Source: a virus
Taxonomy: Duplodnaviria > Heunggongvirae > Uroviricota > Caudoviricetes
Length of the DNA stretch: 64,000 nt
Strand: one strand, 5' to 3'
IMG/VR virus record: IMGVR_UViG_3300020050_013219
Shown: one piece after another, positions 10,517 to 63,898 of the stretch
How positions within the stretch are numbered: the first letter of the stretch is position 1
How the letters are laid out: each line of letters begins with the position of its first letter
The notes under the pieces: generated by a model
What the model was told of the DNA's origin: nothing
Database searches by the model: none
What the model saw: the letters and a program-made list of their open reading frames with translations, nothing else
Program-made: the position numbers and the translations under genes

Positions 10517-10587
10517 CAGAGCTGCAAGGGATTGAACCTCAATCTTCTGAACCAAAATCAGACGTAATACCTTTATACCACAGCTCA
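10517..10587 (-). tRNA. tRNA-like gene, non-canonical (short D-arm); anticodon loop TTTTGGT gives anticodon UUG (Gln) as the tentative reading
   Basis: Minus-strand sense sequence has a GGTTCAATCC T-arm, a 5-bp anticodon stem TCTGA/TCAGA with a 7-nt loop, and a 6-7 bp acceptor stem GAGCTG(T)/(G)CAGCTC. The D-stem is only about 3 bp. It sits in a 220-nt gap between minus-strand genes. Confidence 0.5.
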
Positions 10588-11433: not shown

Positions 11434-11898
11434 TTAGTATGTTCCCATTATGAGATTCTTAGGAATTAAGAAAAATCCTGGAAGTTGATGTTTTGGAGTT
11501 GAGAAAATATATTCAGTACTTACCAACCAATTTTGAGCATAAAAAGCCATTGGTGAAACTAAAATATCTGTTCCATATTCATAACCACCACCTGTAATAA
11601 CAACTCCATAAGCCCTTCTACTGGCATCTTGTCCATACCAACCCATAACTGTACCTTGAGCATGACCTGTTTCAGGATGAAGTCTAAGAGCTTCAAAATT
11701 AGGTTCATCTCCAAGTTTTAATCTTACAAGTACATAACCTGGCGAAGGATTAAATTGCTTATAGATTTCAGGAATATCATTAAAAGAATTATTATATTCT
11801 TGTATTTGCTGTAAAGCATTTTGTTCAAGTTCTTGATTTTTAGCTTCATCAATTACTGGTTTAGGAGCTTTGTTCAATCTAATATTTTTCTTGTCCAT
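11434..11898 (-). CDS. Hypothetical protein
   Basis: 154 aa ORF. Confidence 0.6.
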   Translation of the reverse strand: MDKKNIRLNKAPKPVIDEAKNQELEQNALQQIQEYNNSFNDIPEIYKQFNPSPGYVLVRLKLGDEPNFEALRLHPETGHAQGTVMGWYGQDASRRAYGVVITGGGYEYGTDILVSPMAFYAQNWLVSTEYIFSTPKHQLPGFFLIPKNLIMGTY

Positions 11899-12665
11899 TA
11901 TAAGTTAGTTAAAAATTTGTGTAATTCTTTGTTCCACTTTGCATCACTAAGAGCATTATGTTCATTTTTGGGACTTTCAAATTTTGTATTTTTTCCTGTC
12001 TTTTCCCAAATCTCATCTGCAATTTGTTTTAAATCCCTACAATACATCGGAAAACCTTTTGGTAAATCTATCATCTTTCCAAATAACCAACAAAATACTA
12101 CCCAATCATAATCAGCATAATATCCGTAAAATTCAGGTTTAGACTTATCAAGTTCTACGAAGTTAATAATTTCTTCTGCAATTTCTTTATTTGTTTTACC
12201 ATACTTCAAGAGTAACATTTTCAAATAAACATATTTCTCATTATCTTTCATTTCATCCCAAGCATAAGAAGCATCAGATTTAGTATATTTTCCATGCTGT
12301 TCAAATAAATCCATCCATATTTGTTTTAAAACATTTTCCCTTAACCAATAGACTTTAATAGGTTCATCCCCCATTTCTTCGGGAAGTTGTAAATCATGTC
12401 TATTCCAAGCTTCTTCCAAATTAAAATCTTTTGATATTGCATAATATTCGTTTTGAAAAGGTAATTTATGTTTATCACAACAATATTTTCCTAATTTCTC
12501 ATTAATATGACCTGCTCCTTTTTCTTTAAAATCACAACAATCTTCACTAACAATTCCTATACTTATCAAGTCAATAGTAAACGGTGTTTCTCCATATTTA
12601 ATACCAAGAAATTTTTTATCTTGTTTACCCTCAATGAACTCACAGTCAAGATAATATTTAGCCAT
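11898..12665 (-). CDS. DEDDh-family 3'-5' exonuclease (DnaQ/RNase T-like)
   Basis: Exo I 'YLDCEF', Exo II 'YADYDWVVF' and Exo III 'HNALSDAKW' (the H.A..DA signature). Confidence 0.7.
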   Translation of the reverse strand: MAKYYLDCEFIEGKQDKKFLGIKYGETPFTIDLISIGIVSEDCCDFKEKGAGHINEKLGKYCCDKHKLPFQNEYYAISKDFNLEEAWNRHDLQLPEEMGDEPIKVYWLRENVLKQIWMDLFEQHGKYTKSDASYAWDEMKDNEKYVYLKMLLLKYGKTNKEIAEEIINFVELDKSKPEFYGYYADYDWVVFCWLFGKMIDLPKGFPMYCRDLKQIADEIWEKTGKNTKFESPKNEHNALSDAKWNKELHKFLTNL

Positions 12666-22544: not shown

Positions 22545-22618
22545 GGGTTTATAGCTCAATTGGTCAGAGCAACTGACTCATAATCAGTAGGTTACAGGTT
22601 CAAGTCCTGTTAAGCCCA
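22545..22618 (+). tRNA. tRNA with CAU anticodon (Met or Ile2-lysidine type; elongator-like, with G1-C72 paired)
   Basis: Full cloverleaf folded by hand: acceptor GGGTTTA/TAAGCCC, D-stem GCTC/GAGC, anticodon stem ACTGA/TCAGT, loop CTCATAA, T-stem ACAGG/CCTGT, T-loop TTCAAGT. 74 nt. Confidence 0.9.
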
Positions 22619-24648: not shown

Positions 24649-24954
24649 ATGATAACTGACAAACAATATTATCAAAGTATAATTCCAGGATTTGATGGAA
24701 CAGATGAAGAATTTATCCCAAAAATAATGGAAATGTACTTTCCAGGATTTATTCCGAAAAATAAAGATAGTTCTATCACAACAATGAAAGAAAAAATCAT
24801 TAAAATAATAGAATCTTATATTCCTAAATATGATTTAGAATCTTATAAAGATAGAAAAGATTATACAGGAATTATTCTTCATGGAAGAGAAATCCAAAAA
24901 TGTAATGAAGTTCAACATTATCAGAATTTAATAAAAGATATTGAAGAATTATGA
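24649..24954 (+). CDS. Hypothetical protein
   Basis: 101 aa ORF with a 4-nt overlap to the next gene. Confidence 0.55.
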   Translation: MITDKQYYQSIIPGFDGTDEEFIPKIMEMYFPGFIPKNKDSSITTMKEKIIKIIESYIPKYDLESYKDRKDYTGIILHGREIQKCNEVQHYQNLIKDIEEL

Positions 24955-25352
24955 AAAAATCATACTTAGATTTGAATAATGACAGATTTGATGTCAAGTT
25001 TATTGAACATGATATATCTAAATACGATGTATTATTTCATGTAACTCTCAAAGAAAATAGGAAAAGTATTGAGGAAAAGGGACTGTTAATAGGACAACCT
25101 AAATACAAAAGTATGATTGATACTAATATGCTTTTCTTTAGTTACCCTATTGATATGAATACTTCCGATTGTTTTAGATGGTCAGATGAGTATCATTCTT
25201 TAATAGTACTTGATGCAAAGAAATTAAAACAAGATGGTTTTATATTTTACGATGATTTTTGGGGAAGTATTGACCAATCTTCTAAAAGAAATCATTTGTG
25301 TTGTGAAAAGAATATACCAAAAGAGTATATTACAGAAATCATAGAATTTTAG
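24951..25352 (+). CDS. Hypothetical protein with a Tpt1/KptA-like (ADP-ribosyltransferase-fold) HGT-type motif
   Basis: 'FHVTLKENRKSIEEKGL' lines up with the RNA 2'-phosphotransferase motif 'YHGTSLENWESIKEQGL'. The protein is short (133 aa) and its later catalytic Arg/His residues are not evident. Confidence 0.5.
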   Translation: MKKSYLDLNNDRFDVKFIEHDISKYDVLFHVTLKENRKSIEEKGLLIGQPKYKSMIDTNMLFFSYPIDMNTSDCFRWSDEYHSLIVLDAKKLKQDGFIFYDDFWGSIDQSSKRNHLCCEKNIPKEYITEIIEF

Positions 25353-28296: not shown

Positions 28297-28460
28297 ACTT
28301 AACACAAACAGAAATATATCTAATTTTAGAAGCATTAAATCTTCATTATTTGGGGATTTACAGAGTTCTTGAAAAACCTGATAAATTGGGAGATATTGAG
28401 AAGAAAAATCTCATAGAAACTCAATTGTTATTAACAGAATTAATCAATAAATTAAAATGA
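28293..28460 (+). CDS. Small ORF (55 aa) ATGA-coupled at both ends
   Basis: Hand-translated MNLTQTEIYLILEALNLHYLGIYRVLEKPDKLGDIEKKNLIETQLLLTELINKLK. It fills what would otherwise be a 160-nt gap. Confidence 0.45.
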   Translation: MNLTQTEIYLILEALNLHYLGIYRVLEKPDKLGDIEKKNLIETQLLLTELINKLK

Positions 28461-30592
28461 ATTTTCAAACATTATTAACTAAAATCCAGTCTCAATTTGA
28501 GGCTATGTGTGCCACAGGTAAGTTGTATATTTCTTCAGTTGATGGAGAAACATTATGGCAGACTTATCTTAGTTCCTTTAAACCTAAAAATAATCCTATT
28601 TGGAGGGTAAATTCAGAACATGATGGTAGAAATGACCACAACTTTTTCCGTAGATATGCAAATATCGTTGCAATCAAAAATGGTAAAATTATTTCTATTT
28701 TTGATACAATTGTAGATGAAGAATATGCTGACAGCTATAATGCTTGCAAAGAATTATTGACAAATGCTCCTATTGAAGGTGTATTTGTTCAAACTTACAA
28801 TAAACTTGTGAATCTTCCTTATGAAAAATCTAAGCCTAATCAAGCTTATTACAGATTGGGCATGGAGAAAAATCATGTGCAGTATAAAGCTGATAATGCT
28901 ACTACTTTGGAAAGTGAAAAGGCAAAAGGCAAAGAGATTGGTAAAGTTTATACTTTTTATCATTACAGTATCAATATCCCTAAGCAATTCATTGACTTTT
29001 CAAATAAATCCAAAGAATCAATTTTTGGAGAGTTGCAAACAACGAAACAATTATTTCAAAAAGGTTTGTTAATTCCTTTGGAAACACTTGAACTTGTGAG
29101 AGATTTGATTCAGCAAGGTTCTTTGTATAGAGGAGATATTTATCTTCAAAAAGTTCTTGACTTTATCAAAATAAGAAAAGATTATGAACTTTCCACAAAC
29201 AAAGAGTTTTTCATTCTTGAAAACTTTTGGAAGACACCATTTGCAAGATTTGCCAATGAATTAATAGGAACAACTTGTATTGAACTTGCAGAAGGAAAAG
29301 AAATTAATAAAGTAGTTGATAGTTTCAATTTTAGAGTTGACCCTGTTAATTATCAAAAAGCTAAAAATCTTGAAGTATCTGAAAAAGCAAAAGCAGAAGC
29401 TGAAAAGAAATTGAAAGATTTAGGTTATTTGACTGAAACAAACAATTCTTTCAACAGAAGATATGCTACTATTGAAGATATTAATGTTAGTGAAATAAAA
29501 CATACTAATGTTGATAACACAGTAGAGAAACCACTTGGCTTGTTTGGTAAAGTAGGAGTTCCAACAACAGGATTTAGCAGACATAAAAGAGCTGAATTTG
29601 ATAAAGTAGAAAGTGTTACTATTGACAAGTTTATGAAAGATATTCTTCCGACTGTTACAAGTATGGAAGTATTCTTGGAGAACAAATTCAATAATAATTT
29701 AGTTGCTTTATTTACAGCAGCAGAAGAAGCTAAAAATCTAATGAAATGGAGTAATCCTTTTAGTTGGACTTATGAAAATAACTTGTCAGGAGTTTCTCAA
29801 ATCAAAGAACAGGTTAAGTCCAAAGGTGGGAAAGTTGATGGTGTACTTAGATTTAGCATGATGTGGGCTGATGGTAATGGTGATAACAGTGATTTAGATT
29901 TACATTGCATTGAACCAAGTGGTAATGAAATAATGTTTAATAATAATTACAATAGTAGAACAGGTGGAAATCTTGATATTGACATTACACAACCAAATGG
30001 TAGATTAGCAGTGGAAAATATTACTTTTCCAAATCTAAGCAAAATGCAAGAAGGAGTTTATAAATTATTTGTTCGTCAATTTGCGGCAAGAAACTCAAAA
30101 GGTTTTAAAGCAGAAGTTGAATTTAATGGAGAATTATATTCTTATTCTTATAATCAAGCTGTTTATGGAGATATTCATGTAGCAGAAGTTACTTTAAAAA
30201 ATGGAATATTTTCTATTAAACATATACTTCCTGCAACAGAAGGAGAAGCAGCTAATAGAACTATTTGGAATCTTGAAACAAATCAATTTCATAAAGTAAA
30301 TTTAGTTTGTGAATCTCCTAATCATTGGGGAGATAACAAAATTGGAACAAAAGAATATTTCTTTATGTTACAAGATTGTAAGTCAGACAAAGCCATGAGA
30401 ACATATCATATTGACCAGTTAAATTCTGAACTTATTCCTGAAAGAAAGGCTTTGGAACTTTTAGGTCAATATATGACTATTGAACCTGCTGAAAAACAAT
30501 TAGCAGGATTAGGATTTAATAGTACGGTTAAAGGAGAAGTTATTGTTAAAGTAAAAGGTTCTCATCAAAGAGTATTAAAAATTCAATTATAA
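28457..30592 (+). CDS. Large hypothetical protein (711 aa) with a Gly/Asp-rich motif 'MMWADGNGDNSDLDLHCIEPSGNEIMFNNNYNSRTGGNLDIDITQPNG'
   Basis: Longest ORF of the early region. I could not place the motif in a named family. Confidence 0.75.
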   Translation: MNFQTLLTKIQSQFEAMCATGKLYISSVDGETLWQTYLSSFKPKNNPIWRVNSEHDGRNDHNFFRRYANIVAIKNGKIISIFDTIVDEEYADSYNACKELLTNAPIEGVFVQTYNKLVNLPYEKSKPNQAYYRLGMEKNHVQYKADNATTLESEKAKGKEIGKVYTFYHYSINIPKQFIDFSNKSKESIFGELQTTKQLFQKGLLIPLETLELVRDLIQQGSLYRGDIYLQKVLDFIKIRKDYELSTNKEFFILENFWKTPFARFANELIGTTCIELAEGKEINKVVDSFNFRVDPVNYQKAKNLEVSEKAKAEAEKKLKDLGYLTETNNSFNRRYATIEDINVSEIKHTNVDNTVEKPLGLFGKVGVPTTGFSRHKRAEFDKVESVTIDKFMKDILPTVTSMEVFLENKFNNNLVALFTAAEEAKNLMKWSNPFSWTYENNLSGVSQIKEQVKSKGGKVDGVLRFSMMWADGNGDNSDLDLHCIEPSGNEIMFNNNYNSRTGGNLDIDITQPNGRLAVENITFPNLSKMQEGVYKLFVRQFAARNSKGFKAEVEFNGELYSYSYNQAVYGDIHVAEVTLKNGIFSIKHILPATEGEAANRTIWNLETNQFHKVNLVCESPNHWGDNKIGTKEYFFMLQDCKSDKAMRTYHIDQLNSELIPERKALELLGQYMTIEPAEKQLAGLGFNSTVKGEVIVKVKGSHQRVLKIQL

Positions 30593-36136: not shown

Positions 36137-38020
36137 GTGCAATTTACAACATTCGATATAGAAACAACTTTGACTTGTTTCTTAATTGTAATGAAAGACT
36201 TCCAATCAAAGAAAAAAGTTTGCTATAAGATTTCTAAATATAGAAATGATTATGATACTTTTGTCAGACATTGGAAGTCTTTGGTTAAAAGAGATTATTA
36301 CTTTGTTGGTTTCAATTCACTTAATTTTGATAGTCAAATAATTGAGTTTATATTACAGAAACCAAGAACTTATTCTGAAATTTATGATGAAGCTCAAAGA
36401 GTAATTTCTCTTAGTGATGACCAAAGATATGAAAGTGCTATTCCTGAATGGAAAATGAGTTTTAAAAACATTGATTTGTTTAAAATTTATCACTATGATA
36501 ATAAAAATCGTAGAACTTCATTAAAATGGTGTGAATTTTCAATGAGAATGTCTAACATTGAAGAAATGCCTTTGCCACATGATATTTCTTATACAGAAGA
36601 AGAAGAAATATTAACAGAAGAATACTGTGAGTATGATGTTTTAGCCACAGAGCTTCTGCTTGAAAAATCTCTTGATAAAATCAAATTAAGGTTTGATATT
36701 GGAGAAGTATATGGTCTTAATTTAAACAATGCTAATGACCCCAAAATAGGCTCTGAAATCTTTAAAAAATTGTTGGAAGAAAGCTTGGAAAGAAAAATAG
36801 GTAAAGAAAGAACTTATCGTCCTGTAATTAATGTGAGTGAGATTATTTTACCTTATATAAAGTTTGAAACTCAACAATGTCAATTACTCTTAGCAGCCTT
36901 TAATAAGCTTAAAATTACAACAACTTTAAAACCATTTGAATATTCTATTAAATTAGGTAATATTACTTATGATTTTGGTGTTGGTGGAATACATGGAGCA
37001 ATACAAGGAATACATAAACCAAATGAGAATGAATTATTCAAATCACATGACATAGAAAGTATGTACCCAAATACAGGTATTCAAAATCATTTATATCCTC
37101 AACATTTAGGTGAAAGATTTTGTAGTATTTACAATGAAGTTTATAAAACAAGAGCTAAAGCTAAAAAAGAAGGAAATAAAGCTGTAAATGAAGGTTTAAA
37201 ATTGGCATTAAATGGAAGCTATGGTAAGAGTAATGATGCTTATTCATTCTTTTATGACCCAAAATATACAATGGCAATAACTATTAATGGACAATTATCT
37301 TTATTGATGCTTATTGAAAAACTGTATTTAGCAGGATTTAAGTTTAAAGTTGCCAACACAGATGGTTGTGAATTAATTATTCAAAAAGATAAAGAAGAAC
37401 TTTATTATAGTATTTGCGAAGAATGGGAAAATCTCACAAAATATAAATTAGAACATTTTGATTATTCGATTATGTTTATGAGAGATGTAAATTCTTATCT
37501 TGGAGTTTATACAAATGGTAAAATAAAGAGAAAAGGTATATTTGAAATCTATGAAGATTTTGTTGGAATGAAAGCTTGGAATAAAAATCCTTCATTTCTT
37601 ATCATTCCATTAGCACTGCAAGCATATTTTGTTGAAAAGAAAGATATTAGACAATTTATTAAATCTCACACAAATATTTATGATTTTCTTGGAGCTGTTA
37701 AGAAAAAATCAGATTTTGAATTATATTATTTAGATAAAAAGGGAAATAAACATAATTGCCAAAGAATAACAAGGTATTATCTATCGAATAATGGGTATTA
37801 TCTTATAAAAGACTATGGTATGGTTAAAGATAAAAAAACAGGTAAAATGAAACATGTAACAACAAAAGTAGAAGCAAATAATGGCTGTAAAGTTTTAAAT
37901 AAAGTTACAGATGAAAATGCTTTAAATTATAAAGACCTTGATTACAATTATTATATTTCTGAAACAGAAAAAATAATATTTGAAATTGAAGGTAATCAAC
38001 ACCAAACAACATTATTCTAA
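36137..38020 (+). CDS. Family B DNA polymerase, compact (627 aa), with an N-terminal 3'-5' exonuclease
   Basis: Exo I 'FDIETT' at residues 6-11, Exo II 'NSLNFD', Exo III 'YCEYDVLAT'. Motif A 'DIESMYPN', motif B 'KLALNGSYGK', motif C 'VANTDGCEL'. The annotated start is GTG. Confidence 0.85.
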   Translation: MQFTTFDIETTLTCFLIVMKDFQSKKKVCYKISKYRNDYDTFVRHWKSLVKRDYYFVGFNSLNFDSQIIEFILQKPRTYSEIYDEAQRVISLSDDQRYESAIPEWKMSFKNIDLFKIYHYDNKNRRTSLKWCEFSMRMSNIEEMPLPHDISYTEEEEILTEEYCEYDVLATELLLEKSLDKIKLRFDIGEVYGLNLNNANDPKIGSEIFKKLLEESLERKIGKERTYRPVINVSEIILPYIKFETQQCQLLLAAFNKLKITTTLKPFEYSIKLGNITYDFGVGGIHGAIQGIHKPNENELFKSHDIESMYPNTGIQNHLYPQHLGERFCSIYNEVYKTRAKAKKEGNKAVNEGLKLALNGSYGKSNDAYSFFYDPKYTMAITINGQLSLLMLIEKLYLAGFKFKVANTDGCELIIQKDKEELYYSICEEWENLTKYKLEHFDYSIMFMRDVNSYLGVYTNGKIKRKGIFEIYEDFVGMKAWNKNPSFLIIPLALQAYFVEKKDIRQFIKSHTNIYDFLGAVKKKSDFELYYLDKKGNKHNCQRITRYYLSNNGYYLIKDYGMVKDKKTGKMKHVTTKVEANNGCKVLNKVTDENALNYKDLDYNYYISETEKIIFEIEGNQHQTTLF

Positions 38021-40984: not shown

Positions 40985-41471
40985 AATAGTAATGTCTATT
41001 TTAGAAGAAATTCCTTTAAGTGAAGATTTGAGAGAACTTGAAGATGAAAATCTTATGGATTTTATTAAAGGTAATAGAATTATGGAATATTTGTGGGAAA
41101 ATAATATTATTACTACAAAAGGAGATTTTTATGTTCTTAAAAATAAGAAGGATAAAACTCTAAATTTGGAGAATTATTGGGATGAAGTAAAGAAATTTAT
41201 TGATATTAATGGTCAAACTGTTGAAGATTGGGATAAATCTTTAAATATGAAAGGTAGGTTAAATTGCTATGCTAATAACATTGTACAGATAGGAAAATTA
41301 CTTAAAAAAGGGTATTCTTATCGTCAAATAGGCGAAACAATTTCTTATGTTGCAAGGGATTGTGGTCAATTTACAGAAAAATTGACAAAGCAGCTTGACC
41401 CACTTATATTTAAACAGAACTTTGATAAAAGTAAGTTAGAAGTAGTAGATAAATTCACTAAAGTTCTTTAA
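40965..41471 (+). CDS. Hypothetical protein
   Basis: 168 aa ORF. Confidence 0.55.
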   Translation: MLPLYVKIVMSILEEIPLSEDLRELEDENLMDFIKGNRIMEYLWENNIITTKGDFYVLKNKKDKTLNLENYWDEVKKFIDINGQTVEDWDKSLNMKGRLNCYANNIVQIGKLLKKGYSYRQIGETISYVARDCGQFTEKLTKQLDPLIFKQNFDKSKLEVVDKFTKVL

Positions 41472-42511
41472 TGACAGGATTTGAATTAGCAAAAATCAAG
41501 AGACTAAATGCTTTGAGTGGAGTTGCCAATTGTCTTCCCATGCCTTTTGAGAAATTAAGTAAGAAAATTGCAGGTTTCAATAGAGGTTTAAATTGCTGTA
41601 TATCAGCAAGTTCTGGAGTTGGTAAGACTACTTTATCTAAATTTCTTCTGATAAGTTTTGTGGATTGGGCAATAAAAAATAAAATACAACTTTACATAAG
41701 AATGTATCTTTTAGAAGAATCAATAGAAACTTTTGAAAGTACTATATTAATGCACAAACTATTTAAGTTAGAATCAGAAAGAATTTCTCTTGACGATTTT
41801 AATTCAAATGTAAAACCTTTATCAGAAAAAACGTTAGAGAAATTAAAGAAGATAGAAGAAACTTATATGGTAGAATTTCGTAAATATGTAACTTGTATTG
41901 ATACAATGTCAAGACCAACGGAAATTTTTATGGATGCAAAGTCTGCTATACAAGAACATGGAAAAGTAGTAAAAGAAATAAATGAAAAAAGTGGTAAAGA
42001 ATATGAAAAAGAATTTATTCCAAACAATCCAAATGCTTTCCATGTAATATTTTTAGATAATCTAAATGAATTTGACAGTGAAGAAGGATTAGATTTATCT
42101 GCTATGATGAAAAGATGGAGCAATTATGCTTTGAAGGATTTGTGCAAAAGATATAATTATACTATATTTAATATTCATCAACAAAATGCCCAGCAGGAAT
42201 CGGTCGATAATTTGAAGGCTAATAGACTTACTCCTTCACTTAATGGCTTGGGAGACAATAAGTTAGTTGGACGTGCGTACAGATTATGTTTAGGATTATT
42301 TTCTGCCTATCGTCAAAATCAGGCTAAGTGGAATGAGCATATCATTACTGGTGAAAATGGTTATGAAGATTTTTATCGTAGTTTGAATGTATTTAAAAAT
42401 AATTTTGGAGTATCAGGAATAGAAGATAATTTGTATTTTGATGGAATGGTAATTGATTTGAAAGAAACTGAAAGTAAAATATTAAAAAATAAACCTAAAG
42501 ATAATGGATAA
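41471..42511 (+). CDS. DnaB-like replicative helicase (RecA-fold C-terminal domain)
   Basis: Walker A 'SASSGVGKTT', Walker B-like 'VIFLDNLNEF', and 'IFNIHQQNAQQES' / 'LGDNKLVGRAYRL' resembling the DnaB SQLNR and DLRESG regions. Confidence 0.6.
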   Translation: MTGFELAKIKRLNALSGVANCLPMPFEKLSKKIAGFNRGLNCCISASSGVGKTTLSKFLLISFVDWAIKNKIQLYIRMYLLEESIETFESTILMHKLFKLESERISLDDFNSNVKPLSEKTLEKLKKIEETYMVEFRKYVTCIDTMSRPTEIFMDAKSAIQEHGKVVKEINEKSGKEYEKEFIPNNPNAFHVIFLDNLNEFDSEEGLDLSAMMKRWSNYALKDLCKRYNYTIFNIHQQNAQQESVDNLKANRLTPSLNGLGDNKLVGRAYRLCLGLFSAYRQNQAKWNEHIITGENGYEDFYRSLNVFKNNFGVSGIEDNLYFDGMVIDLKETESKILKNKPKDNG

Positions 42512-47340: not shown

Positions 47341-48342
47341 ATGTTAAGAAAACCTGTTGATTGGTCAGATATAAAGCATATTTCAATATATGAACAGTTA
47401 AATTTGTGGTATGAATTGGTTGGTACAAGAAATTTGTATCAGCCAATTTTATCACCTTTTAGAGCTGACACTAACATTGGGGGAAATGTTTATCTTGACC
47501 ATTACAGAGGAAAAATAGTTTTGGCTGATTTTTCATGTAGAGATTTTCATAACATAGACATTTTCAACGCTTTAATTACTTATCATAATTGGAGTTTTGG
47601 TCAAATGTGTGATTATATAAAATCTAAAAATCAAAAATTATCTTTTCAGCATAGAATTGTTGAAGAAATAGATAAAAAATGTTACATTACTCCAAATGTA
47701 TTAAATGGTTTTTATAAGCCGACAATTGAGTACTTTAATACCTACGGAATTTCACATAAAAATCTCTATGATGATGGACATCTTAACGCTGATAAGATAT
47801 TTGTAAATAGATATAATAAAATAGACAAAAAACGTGTAATAGAAACTTGGCAAATGAAAACTTGCCACCTAATATTTAAGTTCAAGTCTGGAAATATGAA
47901 GCTTTACCAACCTTTGGAATCTGATTCTCGAAGTAGGTGGTGTTTATCTAATACAAATAAAGATGATTTTTTCATTATAAAAGGAGATAAATCAAGTGTA
48001 ACTATTGGTTCTTGTTATAAAGATGTCAGAGTTTTTATAAATTCTTTAAAATTAACAGGAAGTGGTATTGCAAGGCAAAACGAATCTTTGCCCAAAAATG
48101 TTGAAGAAGCTTTTGATTGGGAATGGATTTTTAGCCATGAAAAGATTTATCTTACTTATGACTTAGATAGAGCAGGAGAGGTCTTTAAACAGGCTTTAAT
48201 CAATTATATTTCTCAACATAGAGAATTACAGGTATTTGAATACCCGACAAATTTGCCTTGTAAAAATGCGTTTAATAAGACCATTAAAGATGTAGGAGAA
48301 TTATACAGATTTGATAAAACTTTAATATGTATCACAAAGTAA
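47341..48342 (+). CDS. Primase-like protein (Toprim-like 'YLTYDLDRAGE' motif)
   Basis: 333 aa with a Toprim-like DxD...G..E motif near the C-terminus and an N-terminal 'SPFRADTNIGGNVY' segment. Weak call. Confidence 0.45.
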   Translation: MLRKPVDWSDIKHISIYEQLNLWYELVGTRNLYQPILSPFRADTNIGGNVYLDHYRGKIVLADFSCRDFHNIDIFNALITYHNWSFGQMCDYIKSKNQKLSFQHRIVEEIDKKCYITPNVLNGFYKPTIEYFNTYGISHKNLYDDGHLNADKIFVNRYNKIDKKRVIETWQMKTCHLIFKFKSGNMKLYQPLESDSRSRWCLSNTNKDDFFIIKGDKSSVTIGSCYKDVRVFINSLKLTGSGIARQNESLPKNVEEAFDWEWIFSHEKIYLTYDLDRAGEVFKQALINYISQHRELQVFEYPTNLPCKNAFNKTIKDVGELYRFDKTLICITK

Positions 48343-52424: not shown

Positions 52425-52907
52425 ATGAAAGTAAAATTTAAAAAATTACATGAAAGTGCAGTTATCCCTTCTTATGCTAAACAGGGTGATGCAGGAATGG
52501 ATTTAACTGCTATTTCAATTAATGTTACAGATGATTATATTGAATATGGAACAGGTTTAGCTTTTGAAATTCCTGAAAATCATGTTGGTTTATTATTTCC
52601 AAGAAGTAGTATTTCTAAAAAAGATTTATGTCTTGCAAATTCTGTTGGTGTAATTGACAGTGGATATAGGGGAGAAGTTAAACTTAGATTTAAAATACTA
52701 CATGACTTTCAAGAACTTACTGAAAAAGAAGGAAACAGATTGTTTTTCATACAAAATGAAGAAGAAATGTATGCTTATATTTATGATATTGGAGAAAGAA
52801 TTGGTCAATTAATTATATTACCTTATCCAAATATTGAACTTGAAGAAGGAGAATTATCAAATTCTGAAAGAGGAGAAGGTTCATTTGGACATACAAACAG
52901 ATTATGA
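52425..52907 (+). CDS. dut: dUTP diphosphatase (dUTPase)
   Basis: All five dUTPase motifs: 'GDAGMDL', 'PRSSISKK', 'GVIDSGYRGEV', 'GERIGQLIILP' and 'RGEGSFGHT'. Confidence 0.85.
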   Translation: MKVKFKKLHESAVIPSYAKQGDAGMDLTAISINVTDDYIEYGTGLAFEIPENHVGLLFPRSSISKKDLCLANSVGVIDSGYRGEVKLRFKILHDFQELTEKEGNRLFFIQNEEEMYAYIYDIGERIGQLIILPYPNIELEEGELSNSERGEGSFGHTNRL

Positions 52908-54253
52908 AATACACAGTAGAATATTGCAAAAATAACAAAGTAGCCATATTTGTAGATAATGAAAAAGATTTAATCTCTTTACATTCTACATTTAATATAA
53001 AATCTCCTTTATTTACAATGGGAGTAAATTACTTTTTTAATTTTAATTCAAAGTATGGTTATGGTAATGGTGGTCATTACTTAAAAGACAATTACGAATT
53101 AATCACTTTTCAAGAATTTATGCAAAATCAGACAAAAAAATTAACAGAATTTACAGACAAAGATGTAATCCATTGTCCAACAGAAGAAATTGCAAATAAA
53201 ATATGCAAATTGTTGCATGATAAAGGGTTTACATGGTGTAGTGGAAGCTCTTATATAGGTCATAATAATTGGAGACCATATCAAGAAGAAACTTGTTATT
53301 TGGTTTTAAAAGAACGATATGATTCTAAGAATTTTTATGAAAACGAAGGTACAATTCACAAAGCTGAAGATATTTTAGCTTTATACACTGTTTCCGAAGA
53401 AAAACTTCCTGAAGAATATATTGTAGAATGTAAAATAGTAGAAGAATGTAATATTGTAGCAAGTCATATTAAAGAAGTAGATTATGATTGTTTATCAGTT
53501 TTCAGATATGTTATTAATTCCAAAATACTTGGGAAAGATTCAACTTTATACTATAATATTCCTGGCAAATGTAGCCATCTTCCTATATTAACATTTCAAC
53601 AATTTCAAGAACAAATTATGAACATACAAAAGATAATTGGGTATAAAGCTCCTTATGATTTAGCAGGAGGAATGGTTAAAAAAGGTACTATTTATAAAAA
53701 AGTACAAGAAGATGATAGATTTTATGCTCCAGAAGGTAAAATATCAAAAACAACTTTACCAAAAGAAATTGTTGAAACTTGGGAAGCTGTATTTGAAGAA
53801 GAATTTAAAGTTGGAGATTGGGTTTATTTAATTAAACCTTGCAGTACTTCAAATAATAAAGTGGGTAAAATAGGTAAATTGTCTGTAATTGAAGAAGGGA
53901 GTTTATCAGAATTTGGTAAATGTGATTTGTATAAACTCGGAAGTTGGTATGAACATGTTTCAGGAATTAGAAAAGCTACACAGTCTGAAATTGATTCTCT
54001 TTTCACCAAAACTTTAACTCTAAGTAATGGAAAAGAGGTTATTGTTAAAAGAGGAATTATTACCGCTAATAATGAAAATGTATCTCTCATTAGATGGAAA
54101 GCTTTATTAGAAACTGGTAAAAAGATTAATAGTTATGATGTAGAATTAACTGATGCAACTTTTAAAATTGGTTGTTGGACTGGAGTTAAATTAACTGATA
54201 TTCAGTTAATTATAAAAACAGCAGAAGAACAGATTGAACTAATGAAAGATTGA
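52904..54253 (+). CDS. Hypothetical protein (449 aa), ATGA-coupled to the dUTPase
   Basis: Long ORF with no recognised motif. Confidence 0.65.
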   Translation: MKYTVEYCKNNKVAIFVDNEKDLISLHSTFNIKSPLFTMGVNYFFNFNSKYGYGNGGHYLKDNYELITFQEFMQNQTKKLTEFTDKDVIHCPTEEIANKICKLLHDKGFTWCSGSSYIGHNNWRPYQEETCYLVLKERYDSKNFYENEGTIHKAEDILALYTVSEEKLPEEYIVECKIVEECNIVASHIKEVDYDCLSVFRYVINSKILGKDSTLYYNIPGKCSHLPILTFQQFQEQIMNIQKIIGYKAPYDLAGGMVKKGTIYKKVQEDDRFYAPEGKISKTTLPKEIVETWEAVFEEEFKVGDWVYLIKPCSTSNNKVGKIGKLSVIEEGSLSEFGKCDLYKLGSWYEHVSGIRKATQSEIDSLFTKTLTLSNGKEVIVKRGIITANNENVSLIRWKALLETGKKINSYDVELTDATFKIGCWTGVKLTDIQLIIKTAEEQIELMKD

Positions 54254-55197
54254 TAAATTATTTTCGTTATCCTGCACTCAATAGTTCATTGATAAAGTTC
54301 TTACTTAATATGAAAAGTGATGATAAAGAAAGATGGATAAAACCTTTCGATAAAGGCTCTATACTTGATTTCTATCTCACTGAATATGAGGACTTTAACA
54401 ATTTCTTTGAAGTAGTAGATGTAGAAGAACCTTCCAAAACAACAAATGATGGAAAGTTTGCAAGTGCTTGTATAGCACAAAAAATAGGTAAGGGGGAAAC
54501 TTATAATTATGAGGAAGCTCATGCTAAGGTTGGAATAAAACAACCTTATGAATCTTTTATTGAAAATTATAAGTATTTTCCTTACCTTGAAACTTATCTC
54601 AAAAAGAAATTTAGTGATAAGAATGTAGTAATAAAAGCTGATGTAGAATTAGCTCAAAGAATGGTTTTAAAACTTGTAAATAGTCGGGTAAATCATTGCA
54701 AATATTTTGTATTTATAAAAGATGTTTATGAAACTTATGGACAGAGTGAGATATATGGACAATACAATGGTTGTCCATGTAAAATAAAAGCAGATAGAGT
54801 TATTGTGGACTATATCAATAAAACTGTACAATTGATGGATATTAAAAGTATGGGAGATTATAGTAGTAATTTTGACCAAAGCTTTGAATACTTCAAGTAT
54901 TCAATTCAGGCTGATTTTTATTGGATGGTTTTTAACGAAATGAATTGGGTTTCTCCAAATTTTGATAAAAGTAAAATAGAAGGTTTTACTTTATTAGAAG
55001 ATTTCATATTCTTAGCTATACCTACAAATGATTCAGCTTCATTAGATTATAAATACAAAGTTTGCAAACAAAACCCTGACATTTTGAAAGCCATAGAAAT
55101 GTATAAACAAATGGATGAAGCAGGAGTTAATAAAACAAAACAAAATTATTATGAATTAGTAAATAGTATGGAAGAAATTGAACTAGATAGTAAATGA
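54250..55197 (+). CDS. Hypothetical protein; possible PD-(D/E)XK nuclease ('KADRVIVDY...VQLMDIKS')
   Basis: 315 aa. A D...(D/E)xK-like arrangement was recognised by eye only. Confidence 0.55.
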   Translation: MINYFRYPALNSSLIKFLLNMKSDDKERWIKPFDKGSILDFYLTEYEDFNNFFEVVDVEEPSKTTNDGKFASACIAQKIGKGETYNYEEAHAKVGIKQPYESFIENYKYFPYLETYLKKKFSDKNVVIKADVELAQRMVLKLVNSRVNHCKYFVFIKDVYETYGQSEIYGQYNGCPCKIKADRVIVDYINKTVQLMDIKSMGDYSSNFDQSFEYFKYSIQADFYWMVFNEMNWVSPNFDKSKIEGFTLLEDFIFLAIPTNDSASLDYKYKVCKQNPDILKAIEMYKQMDEAGVNKTKQNYYELVNSMEEIELDSK

Positions 55198-58099: not shown

Positions 58100-58951
58100 T
58101 TGTTTATCAAAATAAATATGGAAAAATCAACAATTATGGATAGGATGAAAGAATCCTATGAAATTAGAGCAAGACATTATCTTACAAGAAGGATTCCTGT
58201 CATTATGAGGTTAGATGGGAAAGCTTTTCATACTTACACAAAAGGTCTTAATAAGCCATTTGATGAAGGTTTGATTGAAGATATGCAAAAGACTGCAATT
58301 TATCTTTGTGAGCAAATTCAAGGCTGTAAAGCAGCTTATATTCAATCTGATGAAATAAGTCTTTTGCTAACAGATTATGAAAACTTAAATACAGAAGCTT
58401 GGTTCAATTATGAAGTTCAGAAAATGACTTCTATTAGTGCAAGCTTAGCGACAGGTAAATTTAATCAAATGAGAATTGAAAGTAAATTTAACATTCCAGA
58501 TTGGAATTTATTAAGTTTAGACCATTTATTTGATAATTTTAAATTAGCAAACTTTGATAGTAGAGTTTTCACAATCCCAAAAGATGATGTAGCAAATTAT
58601 TTCCTTGCAAGACAACTTGATGCTGAAAAGAACTCTATTTCAATGCTTGCCCAAAGTATGTATTCTCATAAAGAACTTCATGGTAAACATGGTGGAGAAA
58701 TGCAGGAAATGTGCTTTCAAAAAGGTGTTAATTGGAATGATTTACATTTTAGCAAGAAAAGAGGTAGTTTTATTGTTAAGAATACTTATGTAAATGGGGA
58801 GTTATATGAAATTAGGAATAATAAAATATATCATCCTGAACCTTATGATAGATGGGTAGAATTAACAAAAGAAGATATTATCAGAACTAAATGGGAAGTT
58901 GTAGAAACTCCTATGAGGTTTAATCATTCACATTTTGAAAAATGGCTTTAG
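58100..58951 (+). CDS. Thg1-like protein (tRNA-His guanylyltransferase family; 3'-5' nucleotidyltransferase for tRNA 5'-end repair)
   Basis: 'RIPVIMRLDGKAFHTYTKGLNKPFDEGLIEDM' aligns with Thg1 '[28 protein letters not shown]'. 'AAYIQSDEISLLL' aligns with 'IAYGQSDEYSFVF'. 'TSISASLATGKF' aligns with 'THVASQFASSYVF'. The track start is TTG; the real start is probably the ATG at about 58118. Confidence 0.8.
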   Translation: MFIKINMEKSTIMDRMKESYEIRARHYLTRRIPVIMRLDGKAFHTYTKGLNKPFDEGLIEDMQKTAIYLCEQIQGCKAAYIQSDEISLLLTDYENLNTEAWFNYEVQKMTSISASLATGKFNQMRIESKFNIPDWNLLSLDHLFDNFKLANFDSRVFTIPKDDVANYFLARQLDAEKNSISMLAQSMYSHKELHGKHGGEMQEMCFQKGVNWNDLHFSKKRGSFIVKNTYVNGELYEIRNNKIYHPEPYDRWVELTKEDIIRTKWEVVETPMRFNHSHFEKWL

Positions 58952-59963: not shown

Positions 59964-60658
59964 AATTAATAGATTGGCTTACTTGTAAAGAAGTTTTACT
60001 TCAATATTTTACAGAAGAAGAAATAGAACTTGCTTTACATCAAATAAATTATTCACTTGATGACTTAACTGATATTGAAAACTTTGAGAATGAACCAAAG
60101 TTTTATAAACATTACGAACTTTACAAACAAAATGTAAGGTTTAATAAAAAAGTTTATCAAGGAGAATATTCAAAAGATGTTTCAGTAGTTGGTAATTCTT
60201 ATAGAGTTAAAGCTAAATATCAAGGCTTGAAACATGGAAAACTTGTCCATAAATTATTTTCACATAAATATGAATGGTTTGATAGTTTCTTTACAACTCA
60301 ATTGCTTGACTGTAAGCAGTTTACAGGATTTATTAGACTTAAAGATATTCCTGAAGAATTTAAAGATTTAACAATTAATCAATTATTAGAAGTTGAGAGG
60401 AAAGAAGTAGTAAAATCTCAATGGAAAATATATGAAGTAAATTCTAACCCTGAAATGTACCTTGAAACAGAGTTTGGCAGTTTGTATGTTCCTTATAATT
60501 CCTTGATAGACAGAGACTTTTCAATAATAGAAAACAGAATGACTACTTATGTTAATTGGTATAGTACAGATATTGAAGAGAAAACTGCAATGTTAAAACC
60601 TTTAATTTCAAAAGAAGCTTTAAAACTAAAAGAATATTATGAAAGTAGAATTAATTGA
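59855..60658 (+). CDS. Hypothetical protein (the real start is probably the ATG at about 59960, in ATGA overlap, giving MKLIDWLTCKEV...)
   Basis: Track ORF of 267 aa; the first 35 codons overlap the upstream gene. Confidence 0.5.
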   Translation: MYNNCNFSSFSFQNSRSKRFFFSTSRINLETILADMKLIDWLTCKEVLLQYFTEEEIELALHQINYSLDDLTDIENFENEPKFYKHYELYKQNVRFNKKVYQGEYSKDVSVVGNSYRVKAKYQGLKHGKLVHKLFSHKYEWFDSFFTTQLLDCKQFTGFIRLKDIPEEFKDLTINQLLEVERKEVVKSQWKIYEVNSNPEMYLETEFGSLYVPYNSLIDRDFSIIENRMTTYVNWYSTDIEEKTAMLKPLISKEALKLKEYYESRIN

Positions 60659-61274
60659 TTACATGGGAAGTGATAATGCAGTTTGTCAAGCTGCAAGAGT
60701 ATCATTTAATAAACAATCAAAGGATTACAGTGAAGAACAAAACATTAAATTGTTAAATTATCTTGCTGCACATAATCACTGGTCTCCCTTTTCACATCCA
60801 CAATTACAGTTTAGGATTACAACTCCTATTTATGTGGAAAGACAACTTGTAAAAACAGAAGCAGGTAGAGTATATAATTCAATATCAGGAAGATATGTAG
60901 ATTTTAGTGATACTTATACCACAATATCAGAATGGAGAAAGCAGTCTAAAGATAGTAAACAAGGAAGCGATGGATTAATTGATAACCAAGAACTTGCAAA
61001 TAAAATACAAGAAGAAGTTATTGAGTATTGCAAATTTAGATATAATCAATTGATTGATTTAGGAGTTGCAAAGGAACAAGCAAGAACTGTTTTACCTTTA
61101 AGTTTAAATACAACAATGATTTATACTTGTTCTCTTTATACTTTTATTAGACTTTACAAACAAAGAACAAAACCAGATGCTCAAAAAGAAATTAATGATT
61201 TACTTCAACTTATGATGAAAGAAGTTGTTAAATCAGATTCTTTTCAACATTCTCTTAAGGCTTTTAATTTATGA
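60639..61274 (+). CDS. thyX: ThyX-family (flavin-dependent thymidylate synthase) homologue with a non-canonical RHR motif
   Basis: The N-terminus 'VELIDYMGSDNAVCQAARVSF' matches T. maritima ThyX '[21 protein letters not shown]'. 'LLNYLAAHNHWSPFSH' matches 'LIEYLMKHGHETPFEH'. 'SGRYVDF' is the ThyX S.RY motif, and 'ARTVLPLSLNT' matches 'ARIVLPLNLYT'. The RHR triad reads K-T-E here. Confidence 0.75.
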   Translation: MKVELIDYMGSDNAVCQAARVSFNKQSKDYSEEQNIKLLNYLAAHNHWSPFSHPQLQFRITTPIYVERQLVKTEAGRVYNSISGRYVDFSDTYTTISEWRKQSKDSKQGSDGLIDNQELANKIQEEVIEYCKFRYNQLIDLGVAKEQARTVLPLSLNTTMIYTCSLYTFIRLYKQRTKPDAQKEINDLLQLMMKEVVKSDSFQHSLKAFNL

Positions 61275-63270: not shown

Positions 63271-63488
63271 AAAAATTAGAATTAATACCTTATATTTACG
63301 CAGGAGATATTCCTGATGATATTGTAGATGAAGAATTTGTTGATATAGTAAGCACTCATTATCAAGATGATATAGCTCACATAAATTGGAAAGATGAAGA
63401 ATATTTTCCTAAATTCAAACTTTGGCTTATAGAAGAATATGGAGAAGAAGTTAAAAAATATGGGGACTTTGCAATACAATCAACATGA
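63267..63488 (+). CDS. Hypothetical protein
   Basis: 73 aa ORF. Confidence 0.45.
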   Translation: MKKLELIPYIYAGDIPDDIVDEEFVDIVSTHYQDDIAHINWKDEEYFPKFKLWLIEEYGEEVKKYGDFAIQST

Positions 63489-63898
63489 GAGAAATAAAAT
63501 TTAGAATTTGGGATAAAATCCAAAATAAATTCATATATAATTGGCAAGAAGCAATTGCAGGACACATTAGTTATTTTAATACTGATATTAATCCTAATAA
63601 TATATATGCTTTACAAGATGAATTACTTGTATTTCAGCAATTTACAGGTCTTAAAGATATTAATGAAGTTGATATTTATGAAGGAGATATTTTAGAATTT
63701 CAAGAAGATTTTGGTTATCATACTAATAAAGGAGAAATGTATTATGTAGCCTTTGAGTATTCAACTTTTGTATTAAAATATTTATCAAATAATCAAATAC
63801 ATGGATTTGTTAAAGATTCTCAAAAAGATTGGCATCATTCTATTGAAAATCTCGGAAATGAAGTTAAAATAATAGGAAATATTTATGAGAACAAATAA
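63485..63898 (+). CDS. YopX-family protein
   Basis: N-terminal 'MREIKFRIWDK', central 'DIYEGDIL' and C-terminal 'IIGNIYEN' are hallmark YopX segments. Confidence 0.75.
   Translation: MREIKFRIWDKIQNKFIYNWQEAIAGHISYFNTDINPNNIYALQDELLVFQQFTGLKDINEVDIYEGDILEFQEDFGYHTNKGEMYYVAFEYSTFVLKYLSNNQIHGFVKDSQKDWHHSIENLGNEVKIIGNIYENK

What the first reader, a model, noticed from the sequence alone, without database searches (positions are those of the whole stretch)
58100..58951. Phage-encoded Thg1-like 3'-5' nucleotidyltransferase, co-resident with two tRNAs (tRNA 5'-end repair candidate)
The protein carries the defining Thg1/TLP segments RLDGKAFH, QSDEISLL and SISASLATGKF, with the human Thg1-like spacing. 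Thg1-like proteins add nucleotides 3'-5' to repair tRNA 5' ends. A phage copy, in a genome that also carries its own tRNAs (22545-22618 and a non-canonical one at 10517-10587), suggests the phage maintains or repairs tRNAs during infection. One possible purpose is to counter host tRNA-cleaving defences. A Tpt1-like motif protein at 24951-25352 could belong to the same theme.
Basis: partly seen in the sequence, partly recalled or inferred. Interest (0 to 1): 0.7.

Follow-up and report, generated by a model that had tools for sequence, protein, structure and literature searches.

The report
Phage Thg1-like tRNA 5'-end repair enzyme
A distant crAss-like phage carries an intact bacterial-type Thg1-like reverse (3'-5') RNA polymerase. 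The gene family is already widely annotated in phages and already proposed to repair tRNA 5' ends, so the identification is correct but ordinary.

Summary
The ORF at 58100-58951 is real; its likely start is the ATG at 58118 (277 aa). It is a Thg1-superfamily protein: Pfam PF04446 6.6e-28, PHROG 4717 "tRNA-His guanylyltransferase" 2e-81, Bacillus thuringiensis TLP crystal structure 2.4e-57. A predicted structure matches only Thg1/TLP structures.

The metal-binding carboxylates (D39, D84, E85) and the nucleotide-binding residues are conserved. The eukaryotic HINNLYN anticodon-reading motif is replaced by EKNSISM. It is therefore a bacterial-type, template-dependent repair TLP and not a human-like Thg1.

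The window is a distant Crassvirales phage, probably with a Bacteroidota host. Both tRNAs are real. The "Tpt1-like" ORF has no support. No RNA ligase, kinase, phosphatase, RlaP or CCA-adding gene is detectable in the 64 kb.

The family is common in phages: 162 GenBank records and more than 593 IMG/VR loci. Of 72 dereplicated viral loci, 33 carry recognisable RNA-repair genes within 10 kb. This supports the repair reading in general. That reading has been in the literature since 2010.

Verdict: a new member of a known kind. The only modest novelty is the crAss-like, partner-less context. Interest is low.

The parts
58118..58951 (+). Thg1-like protein (TLP) gene, 277 aa from the ATG at 58118.
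   Evidence: Pfam PF04446 6.6e-28; PHROG 4717 2e-81; BtTLP 4kgk 2.4e-57; the AlphaFold model matches only Thg1/TLP structures.
58208..58219 (+). RLDG motif. R37 binds the incoming NTP triphosphate (= MaTLP R19 / ScThg1 R27). D39 is the first metal-binding carboxylate (= BtTLP D30 / MaTLP D21 / human D29). G40 corresponds to MaTLP G22.
   Evidence: Alignments. Residue roles from PMC3701042 and PMC4820378. Invariant in 14 homologues. Coordinates.
58343..58354 (+). QSDE motif. S83 (= ScThg1 S75) acts in 5'-end activation. D84 and E85 are the second metal-binding carboxylates (= BtTLP D75/E76, MaTLP D69/E70, human D76/E77).
   Evidence: Invariant. Coordinates.
58628..58645 (+). KNSISM segment, which takes the place of the eukaryotic HINNLYN motif. 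K177/N178 correspond to MaTLP R136/N137 (recognition of the 5'-end base and C72) and to BtTLP K153/N154. M182 corresponds to BtTLP M158, the position of ScThg1 N161. This segment is the TLP-type signature.
   Evidence: Alignments to 4kgk, 5axk and 3wbz. Residue roles.
58781..58912 (+). A C-terminal beta region of variable length that ends in the conserved RTKWEVVETP segment (58883-58912). I infer that it is the counterpart of the MaTLP beta-hairpin with its single conserved Arg (R215), which holds the tRNA elbow.
   Evidence: variable columns followed by nearly invariant R, K and W; beta strands predicted here; the MaTLP hairpin is poorly conserved except for R215. The equivalence is inferred and was not tested.
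10517..10587 (-). Phage tRNA-Gln (UUG) with a U1.U72 mismatch and G73. It is a possible but unproven TLP client.
22545..22618 (+). Phage tRNA with a CAU anticodon (Met or Ile2) and a fully paired acceptor stem. It is a possible but unproven TLP client.

Best explanation
The gene encodes a catalytically competent, bacterial-type Thg1-like protein (TLP).

Mechanism, by homology with BtTLP and MaTLP: the enzyme binds a tRNA whose 5' end is short by one or a few nucleotides. It activates the 5' phosphate with ATP or GTP, or uses a 5' triphosphate directly. It then adds the missing nucleotides in the 3'-5' direction, using the 3' strand of the acceptor stem as a Watson-Crick template. The two metal ions are held by D39 and D84/E85.

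Biological setting: the gene lies in the replication and nucleotide-metabolism block of a distant crAss-like phage. It is presumably expressed with that block and keeps host and/or phage tRNAs usable during infection, by quality control or repair of damaged 5' ends.

Shown and inferred: family membership, conserved active-site residues, the fold and the phage context are shown. The tRNA substrate, the repair role in vivo and any link to a host defence are inferred.
For: - Family and fold.
- Conserved catalytic and NTP-binding residues: R37, D39, K52, S83, D84, E85, K108, R155, K177 and N178. They are mapped through the alignments onto residues with published roles, and they are invariant among 14 homologues down to 59% identity.
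- TLP type and not Thg1 type: EKNSISM replaces HINNLYN, with Met at the N161 position.
- Published enzymology: BtTLP prefers 5'-truncated tRNAs of any identity (PMC3061083).
- Gene neighbourhoods in relatives. In 72 dereplicated viral TLP loci, the commonest recognisable neighbours within 10 kb are an AAA_33 PNK-like kinase (18 loci), CCA-adding enzyme (17), RNA ligase (15), RlaP (12), metallophosphoesterase (10) and HAD_SAK_2 (8). Of the 72 loci, 33 have at least one of these and 24 have at least two. These genes lie closer to the TLP gene than other ORFs do (median 2.9 against 4.1 kb, p = 0.002), and 99% are on the same strand.
- Selection: the gene is kept in a syntenic phage lineage at 75-91% identity.
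Against: - No partner enzyme is detectable in this 64-kb window: no RNA ligase, polynucleotide kinase, phosphatase, RlaP or CCA-adding enzyme. Methods were Pfam at E <= 0.001 to 0.05 on 94 ORFs, local HMMs at E <= 10, and tblastn. The last roughly 35 kb of the 99-kb contig could not be retrieved.
- I know of no host defence that removes tRNA 5' nucleotides, and none turned up in the literature searched.
- Even for bacterial TLPs the physiological substrate is unknown.
- The neighbourhood statistics come from simple ORF calls and home-made HMMs. They are lower bounds and have no genome-wide background.
Confidence: 0.6

Rival explanations
1. It works as its database name says, as a tRNA-His guanylyltransferase. 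It would add or restore G-1 opposite C73 on host or phage tRNA-His, for example after RNase P cuts at +1 during infection.
For: BtTLP adds a templated N-1 to tRNA-His (PMC3061083; PMC6471195). Four phage tRNA-His genes next to TLP genes have C73, so G-1 addition would be templated. Most phage records use this name.
Against: There is no tRNA-His gene in the window. All four phage tRNA-His genes seen near TLPs already encode G at -1. The His-anticodon-reading HINNLYN motif is absent. BtTLP kinetically prefers truncated tRNAs 5- to 160-fold.
Confidence: 0.15
2. It acts on an RNA other than tRNA, or mainly as a 5'-end activating (adenylylating or guanylylating) enzyme. It could extend or activate 5' ends of phage transcripts, small RNAs or broken RNAs, independently of a ligase.
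For: TLPs accept externally templated substrates, and BtTLP accumulates App- and Gpp-activated intermediates (PMC6471195). [quoted passage not shown] That one of them has non-tRNA roles is my recollection and was not checked. No tRNA-repair partners are present in this window.
Against: The residues that recognise the acceptor-stem end are conserved (K177/N178). A C-terminal beta-hairpin-like region with a conserved Arg fits tRNA elbow binding. Neighbours in related phages are tRNA-specific enzymes such as the CCA-adding enzyme.
Confidence: 0.12
3. It is the polymerase half of a tRNA 5'-editing pathway, as in protist mitochondria. It would fix the encoded U1.U72 mismatch of the phage tRNA-Gln by replacing U1 with A1 after an unknown nuclease removes it.
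For: The tRNA-Gln at 10517-10587 has a U1.U72 mismatch. DdiTLP3 performs exactly this repair step in mitochondrial tRNA 5' editing (PMC6471195).
Against: Only 7 of 169 tRNAs encoded near phage TLP genes have a mismatch at positions 1-3, so there is no family-wide editing signature. The same U1.U72 with G73 recurs in another phage's CUA tRNA. From my own knowledge, a weak 1-72 pair with G73 is a GlnRS identity feature. The mismatch therefore looks selected and not a defect. No candidate 5' nuclease was identified.
Confidence: 0.05
4. It is a recently captured host gene with no selected role in the phage, either a passenger or a decaying gene.
For: Chromosomal TLPs exist in Bacteroidota at 46-50% identity. 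The closest isolated relative of the phage, Cellulophaga phage phi14:2, lacks the gene.
Against: The reading frame is intact and all catalytic residues are invariant across homologues from 59 to 91% identity. The gene is retained at the same syntenic position in L099. The nearest relatives are viral or metagenomic and not chromosomal.
Confidence: 0.05

Closest known systems
Bacillus thuringiensis Thg1-like protein (BtTLP; PDB 4KGK/4KGM)
   Same: It is the best sequence match (E 2.4e-57; 37-47% identity in the structural alignments) and the best structural match. It has the same metal carboxylates (D30/D75/E76), the same K43, the same K153/N154 and the same Met at position 158. It also lacks HINNLYN.
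   Different: BtTLP is a chromosomal bacterial enzyme of 245 aa. The phage protein has an insertion of about 14 residues after the helix at aa 121-150 and a longer variable C-terminal beta region. Activity of the phage protein is untested.
Phage 'tRNA-His guanylyltransferase' family (PHROG 4717), e.g. Bacillus phages Bcp1, BM15 and G, and Pseudomonas phage 201phi2-1
   Same: It is the same protein family (PHROG E 2e-81) at 32-53% identity by tblastn. The same proposed tRNA 5'-end repair role is already discussed by Anantharaman et al. 2010 and Iyer et al. 2021.
   Different: The GenBank hosts listed are mostly large myoviruses and jumbo phages of Bacillus, Caulobacter, Mycobacterium and Prevotella (Lak), among others. 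The present genome is a roughly 99-kb crAss-like phage. No crAss-like record appeared among the 40 sampled hits, and phi14:2 lacks the gene.
Eukaryotic Thg1 (human THG1L, yeast and Candida Thg1)
   Same: It has the same palm fold, the same two-metal site and the same 3'-5' chemistry.
   Different: Similarity is only E 1e-8 to 1e-4. The HINNLYN anticodon-recognition motif and the Asn161 equivalent are absent. Non-templated G-1 addition opposite A73 is therefore not expected.
Phage and bacterial RNA-repair cassettes (T4 PseT/Rnl1 paradigm; the PNK, HAD or metallophosphatase, RNA ligase, RlaP and CCA-adding systems described by Burroughs, Iyer and Aravind)
   Same: Relatives of this TLP in 33 of 72 viral loci are embedded in such cassettes.
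   Different: In this window the TLP stands alone among replication and nucleotide-metabolism genes. No cassette component was detected.
Dictyostelium DdiTLP3 / protist mitochondrial tRNA 5' editing
   Same: It is a template-dependent TLP that acts on any tRNA. The phage tRNA-Gln has a position-1 mismatch of the kind that such systems edit.
   Different: There is no editing signature across tRNAs encoded near phage TLP genes (7 of 169), and no 5' nuclease partner is known.

Membership tests
Thg1 superfamily (Pfam PF04446) | Profile match above the curated threshold | tested here: met
   97.7 bits against a cut-off of 29.2, E 6.6e-28, covering profile positions 3-130 of 130. PHROG 4717 gives 2e-81.
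Thg1 superfamily (Pfam PF04446) | Palm-domain metal-binding carboxylates (human D29, D76, E77; BtTLP D30, D75, E76; MaTLP D21, D69) | tested here: met
   D39, D84 and E85 align to them. They are invariant in 14 homologues.
Thg1 superfamily (Pfam PF04446) | [quoted passage not shown] | tested here: met
   K52, S83, R37, K108 and R155 are present and invariant. The one exception is the MaTLP R83 equivalent, which is E105 here and Asn in BtTLP.
Thg1 superfamily (Pfam PF04446) | Thg1 fold | tested here: met
   The AlphaFold model (mean pLDDT 76, pTM 0.76) has Thg1 or TLP structures as all of its top 32 PDB matches. The best is BtTLP at E 2.8e-21.
Thg1 superfamily (Pfam PF04446) | 3'-5' nucleotide addition activity | not testable with these tools
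   This needs a biochemical assay.
Bacterial/archaeal TLP (repair type), as opposed to bona fide Thg1 | Lacks the eukaryote-specific HINNLYN motif and Asn161, and is closer to characterised TLPs than to Thg1 | tested here: met
   EKNSISM occupies the HINNLYN position. M182 corresponds to BtTLP M158. BtTLP scores 2.4e-57 against 1.4e-8 or weaker for eukaryotic Thg1.
Bacterial/archaeal TLP (repair type), as opposed to bona fide Thg1 | Acceptor-end recognition pair (MaTLP R136/N137) | tested here: met
   K177/N178 carry the conservative R-to-K change, as in BtTLP K153/N154. Both are invariant.
Bacterial/archaeal TLP (repair type), as opposed to bona fide Thg1 | Flexible beta-hairpin with a conserved Arg that binds the tRNA elbow (MaTLP R215) | tested here: inconclusive
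   The region has variable length, predicted beta strands and a nearly invariant Arg (R262) in RTKWEVVETP. The equivalence to R215 is inferred and was not aligned directly.
Bacterial/archaeal TLP (repair type), as opposed to bona fide Thg1 | Kinetic preference for 5'-truncated tRNAs, with Watson-Crick templating | not testable with these tools
   This is known for BtTLP and MaTLP and needs an assay here.
Phage RNA-repair cassette (kinase/phosphatase + RNA ligase, with or without RlaP, CCA-adding enzyme or Thg1) | Co-located end-healing and end-sealing genes | tested here: not met
   None was found in the 64-kb window by Pfam, local HMMs or tblastn. Such genes are present in 33 of 72 related viral loci. 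The remaining roughly 35 kb of the genome was not seen.
Tpt1/KptA 2'-phosphotransferase (claimed for ORF 24951-25352) | Profile or sequence match to the family | tested here: not met
   There is no Pfam hit at E <= 0.01 and no PHROG hit. The only PDB sequence hit, at E 0.47, is an unrelated phosphatase.
Crassvirales (crAss-like phages), for the genome as a whole | crAss-type terminase, portal and replication genes in the characteristic two-arm layout | tested here: met
   The terminase hits only crAss-like phages, with Cellulophaga phi14:2 best at 27% identity over 93% of the query. Portal, GroEL-like protein, PolB and DnaB also match phi14:2, in the same arrangement. The virion RNA polymerase genes lie outside the window.

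The most novel reading that the evidence does not exclude
In this crAss-like lineage the TLP works alone, without ligase, kinase or phosphatase. It would be a dedicated counter-measure to an as yet undescribed Bacteroidota defence, or phage-induced stress, that nibbles tRNA 5' ends. Alternatively it would be the polymerase of a phage tRNA 5'-editing step acting on the U1.U72 tRNA-Gln. Either case would be the first physiological role shown for a bacterial-type TLP.
Probability: 0.07. Interest if true: 0.6.

Novelty: new member of a known kind. Interest (0 to 1): 0.22.

Why it matters
The physiological role of bacterial-type TLPs is still unknown. Phages that keep the gene offer a tractable place to find it. 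The added value here is modest, in three points:
- The family reaches into roughly 100-kb crAss-like phages of probable Bacteroidota hosts.
- About half of the sampled phage TLP genes sit beside end-healing, end-sealing and CCA-adding enzymes, which strengthens the published repair hypothesis.
- This phage carries the TLP without detectable partners, which would make it a clean system for asking what the enzyme does on its own.

None of this changes current understanding.

Tried and rejected
- Retrieving the full 99-kb contig to look for partner genes beyond 64000 failed. Exact-protein look-ups, IMG/VR and JGI metagenome contigs did not return it.
- Megablast of the region against GenBank phages found nothing.
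- The Tpt1 reading of ORF 24951-25352 was rejected.
- Partner genes were searched with Pfam on 94 window ORFs, with iterated local HMMs for six repair families, and with tblastn using the repair genes of L001, L003 and L099. Nothing was found.
- The idea that TLP-carrying phages encode tRNAs needing 5' editing or G-1 addition was rejected as a general rule. Only 7 of 169 tRNAs have mismatches at positions 1-3, and 4 of 4 tRNA-His genes encode G-1. My first parse of the ARAGORN 3' ends was wrong and was redone.
- BLAST-level clustering of neighbours gave only small clusters, so representatives were named with Pfam.
- The promoter and terminator scan around the gene was uninformative: 20 promoter-like sites against 22.7 expected.

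Full report
**Observation**

An ORF runs 58100-58951 on the + strand. The identical public protein (P0001, 277 aa, from a 99,059-bp JGI contig) starts at the ATG at 58118. Several homologues begin at the equivalent of the next ATG, 58136.

The three quoted motifs are present: RLDG (aa 37-40), QSDE (aa 82-85) and SISASLATGKF (aa 111-121) (283-aa numbering is used throughout).

The match to the Thg1 family is far beyond chance:
- Pfam PF04446 scores 97.7 bits against a cut-off of 29.2 (E 6.6e-28).
- PHROG 4717, "tRNA-His guanylyltransferase", gives E 2e-81.
- The Bacillus thuringiensis Thg1-like protein crystal structure 4KGK gives E 2.4e-57.
- An AlphaFold model built on 14 homologues (mean pLDDT 76, pTM 0.76) has Thg1 or TLP structures as all of its top 32 PDB matches. 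BtTLP is best.

**What kind of Thg1-family protein it is**

I mapped the alignments onto residues whose roles are published (PMC3701042; PMC4820378; PMC6471195).

| Residue here | Equivalent | Published role |
|---|---|---|
| D39 | BtTLP D30, MaTLP D21, human D29 | metal binding |
| D84/E85 | BtTLP D75/E76, MaTLP D69/E70, human D76/E77 | metal binding |
| R37 | MaTLP R19, ScThg1 R27 | incoming NTP triphosphate |
| K52 | BtTLP K43, ScThg1 K44 | 5'-end activation |
| S83 | ScThg1 S75 | 5'-end activation |
| K108 | MaTLP K86, ScThg1 K96 | nucleotidyl transfer |
| R155 | MaTLP R114, ScThg1 R133 | nucleotidyl transfer |
| K177/N178 | MaTLP R136/N137, BtTLP K153/N154 | 5'-end base and C72 recognition |

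All of these are invariant in 14 homologues down to 59% identity. Only the equivalent of MaTLP R83 differs; it is E105 here and Asn in BtTLP.

The eukaryote-specific HINNLYN motif, whose His stacks on the tRNA-His anticodon, is replaced by EKNSISM. The position of ScThg1 N161 is Met, as in BtTLP M158.

A segment of variable length with predicted beta strands ends in the conserved RTKWEVVETP. It probably corresponds to the tRNA-elbow-binding beta-hairpin of MaTLP, which has a single conserved Arg. This equivalence is inferred.

The protein is therefore a bacterial-type TLP, the class that prefers templated repair of 5'-truncated tRNAs of any identity (PMC3061083). It is not a human-like G-1-adding Thg1.

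**Genome context**

The window is phage DNA with 27-31% G+C.
- The minus arm carries portal (2184-4811), large terminase (4796-7147), a DEDD exonuclease (11898-12665) and a GroEL-like chaperonin (12733-14457).
- The plus arm carries DNA polymerase (36137-38020), a DnaB-like helicase (41471-42511), primase (47341-48342), an exonuclease (54250-55197), dUTPase (52425-52907), the TLP and ThyX (60639-61274).

The terminase matches only crAss-like phages. The best is Cellulophaga phage phi14:2 (Crassvirales, Steigviridae) at 27% identity. Portal, chaperonin, PolB and DnaB also match phi14:2, in the same two-arm layout. The window is thus a distant crAss-like phage.

The host is probably in Bacteroidota. 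The phage relatives infect Flavobacteriia, and the closest genomic TLPs are in Bacteroidota MAGs.

Both tRNAs are real. The CAU tRNA has a perfect acceptor stem. The tRNA-Gln (UUG) has U1.U72 and G73.

**Partners**

The "Tpt1-like" ORF at 24951-25352 matches nothing.

Pfam scans of 94 window ORFs found no RNA ligase, polynucleotide kinase, metallophosphoesterase, HAD_SAK_2, RlaP, CCA-adding enzyme or Tpt1. Local HMMs at E <= 10 and tblastn with repair genes from related phages found none either.

The remaining roughly 35 kb of the contig could not be fetched. A syntenic relative (L099: TLP 75% identical, collinear with window 47.3-63.5 kb) has a HAD_SAK_2 gene 4.9 kb downstream of its TLP. Synteny with the window ends at 63488, just before that point.

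**Relatives elsewhere**

The family is abundant:
- More than 7,700 proteins match at E <= 1e-10 among the 8,000 candidates scored.
- 162 GenBank phage records carry it, mostly annotated as tRNA-His guanylyltransferase.

The nearest relatives (60-91% identity) are metagenomic or viral. Chromosomal bacterial copies reach about 50% at most.

In two phage contigs related by TLP (63-66% identical) the gene sits among RNA-repair genes:
- L001, whose DNA polymerase is also homologous to the window's, has an AAA_33 kinase and an intein-containing RNA ligase.
- L003 has RlaP, a PHA02142-type RNA ligase, two metallophosphoesterases and an AAA_33 kinase.

I dereplicated 98 loci to 72 by TLP identity and named the largest neighbour clusters with Pfam. 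I then counted families within 10 kb using iterated local HMMs.

| Neighbour family | Loci (of 72) |
|---|---|
| AAA_33 PNK-like kinase | 18 |
| CCA-adding enzyme | 17 |
| RNA ligase | 15 |
| RlaP | 12 |
| Metallophosphoesterase | 10 |
| HAD_SAK_2 | 8 |

Of the 72 loci, 33 have at least one of these families and 24 have at least two. These genes lie closer to the TLP than other ORFs do (median 2.9 against 4.1 kb, Mann-Whitney p = 0.002). Of them, 99% are on the TLP strand.

These counts are lower bounds from crude ORF calls and have no genome-wide background. The pattern nevertheless agrees with the published neighbourhood analysis of cellular Thg1 genes (PMC2904730).

**tRNA clients**

I examined 169 distinct tRNAs encoded within 10 kb of the TLP genes in the loci fetched by then, together with the window's two tRNAs. 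Only 7 have a non-pair at acceptor positions 1-3. All four tRNA-His genes encode G at -1 opposite C73. There is thus no family-wide sign that phage TLPs exist to edit or complete phage-encoded tRNAs.

The U1.U72/G73 pattern of the window's tRNA-Gln recurs in a CUA-anticodon tRNA of another viral contig. From my own knowledge, a weak 1-72 pair with G73 is a glutaminyl-tRNA synthetase identity feature. I therefore read the mismatch as selected and not as a defect.

**Mechanism**

The best-supported reading (confidence about 0.6) is an active TLP. It would restore missing 5' nucleotides of host and/or phage tRNAs in a template-dependent 3'-5' reaction during infection.

Family, active site, fold and phage context are shown. 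Substrate and biological purpose are inferred from BtTLP and MaTLP enzymology and from the gene neighbourhoods of relatives.

Against a repair-pathway role in this particular phage stands the absence of any detectable partner. Against the counter-defence idea, I know of no defence that removes tRNA 5' nucleotides.

The rivals are:
- G-1 maintenance on tRNA-His (0.15).
- A non-tRNA or activation-only role (0.12).
- 5' editing of the phage tRNA-Gln (0.05).
- A passenger gene (0.05).

**Comparison with what is known, and novelty**

[quoted passage not shown] This was restated for jumbo phages in 2021 (PMC7824862). A PHROG family and routine GenBank annotations exist. The finding is therefore a new member of a known kind.

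The modest new points are the crAss-like host genome and the partner-less context. No crAss-like record appeared among the sampled GenBank hits. The closest isolate, phi14:2, has no TLP. No paper in the library pairs "guanylyltransferase" with "crAss-like".

Interest is scored at 0.22.

Noticed in passing
window 10517-10587 (-); also L088 11750-11824 and L095 8222-8296: The phage tRNA-Gln (UUG) has a U1.U72 mismatch with G73. The same U1.U72/G73 acceptor end occurs in a CUA-anticodon tRNA (amber suppressor, called 'Pyl' by ARAGORN) in another viral contig. It looks like a Gln-identity feature shared by phage tRNAs.
   Followed up: partly
window 11898-12665 (-): This ORF matches the Rv2179c-type DEDD 3'-5' exoribonuclease (PDB 4oke, E 1.5e-9; PHROG 2259 'RNase H'). 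It lies 1.3 kb from the tRNA-Gln gene. Whether its substrate is RNA or DNA is unknown.
   Followed up: partly
window 12733-14457 (-): A GroEL-like chaperonin (PHROG 5725, Pfam Cpn60_TCP1) lies upstream of the terminase and portal genes on the minus arm. Cellulophaga phage phi14:2 has one (g105) in the same arrangement.
   Followed up: partly
L001 11903-14266: An RNA ligase gene (PF09414) near the TLP of a related 102-kb phage contig is interrupted by an intein (Hint plus LAGLIDADG domains).
   Followed up: no
L088 11477-11824 and L095 7949-8296: Two CUA-anticodon tRNAs sit side by side within 2 kb of the TLP gene in a viral contig. This suggests TAG stop-codon recoding in that phage.
   Followed up: no
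L099 14579-15100: A phage contig syntenic with window 47.3-63.5 kb carries a stand-alone HAD_SAK_2 gene ('Swiss Army Knife RNA repair' HAD phosphatase) 4.9 kb downstream of its TLP, next to dNMP kinase and ribonucleotide reductase genes. The equivalent position in this phage would fall just beyond the window end.
   Followed up: partly
window 28457-30592 (+): A 711-aa protein matches PHROG 1735 of unknown function very strongly (E 4e-182) but has no Pfam domain. It is a conserved phage protein of unknown role.
   Followed up: no
window 7760-8071 (-) and 63485-63898 (+): The small ORF at 7760-8071 weakly matches a local GIY-YIG homing-endonuclease model (E 8.6e-6). The ORF at 63485-63898 reads like a YopX protein from its sequence; the Pfam YopX hit in the pooled scan was not assigned to a specific ORF. 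It marks where synteny with L099 breaks.
   Followed up: no
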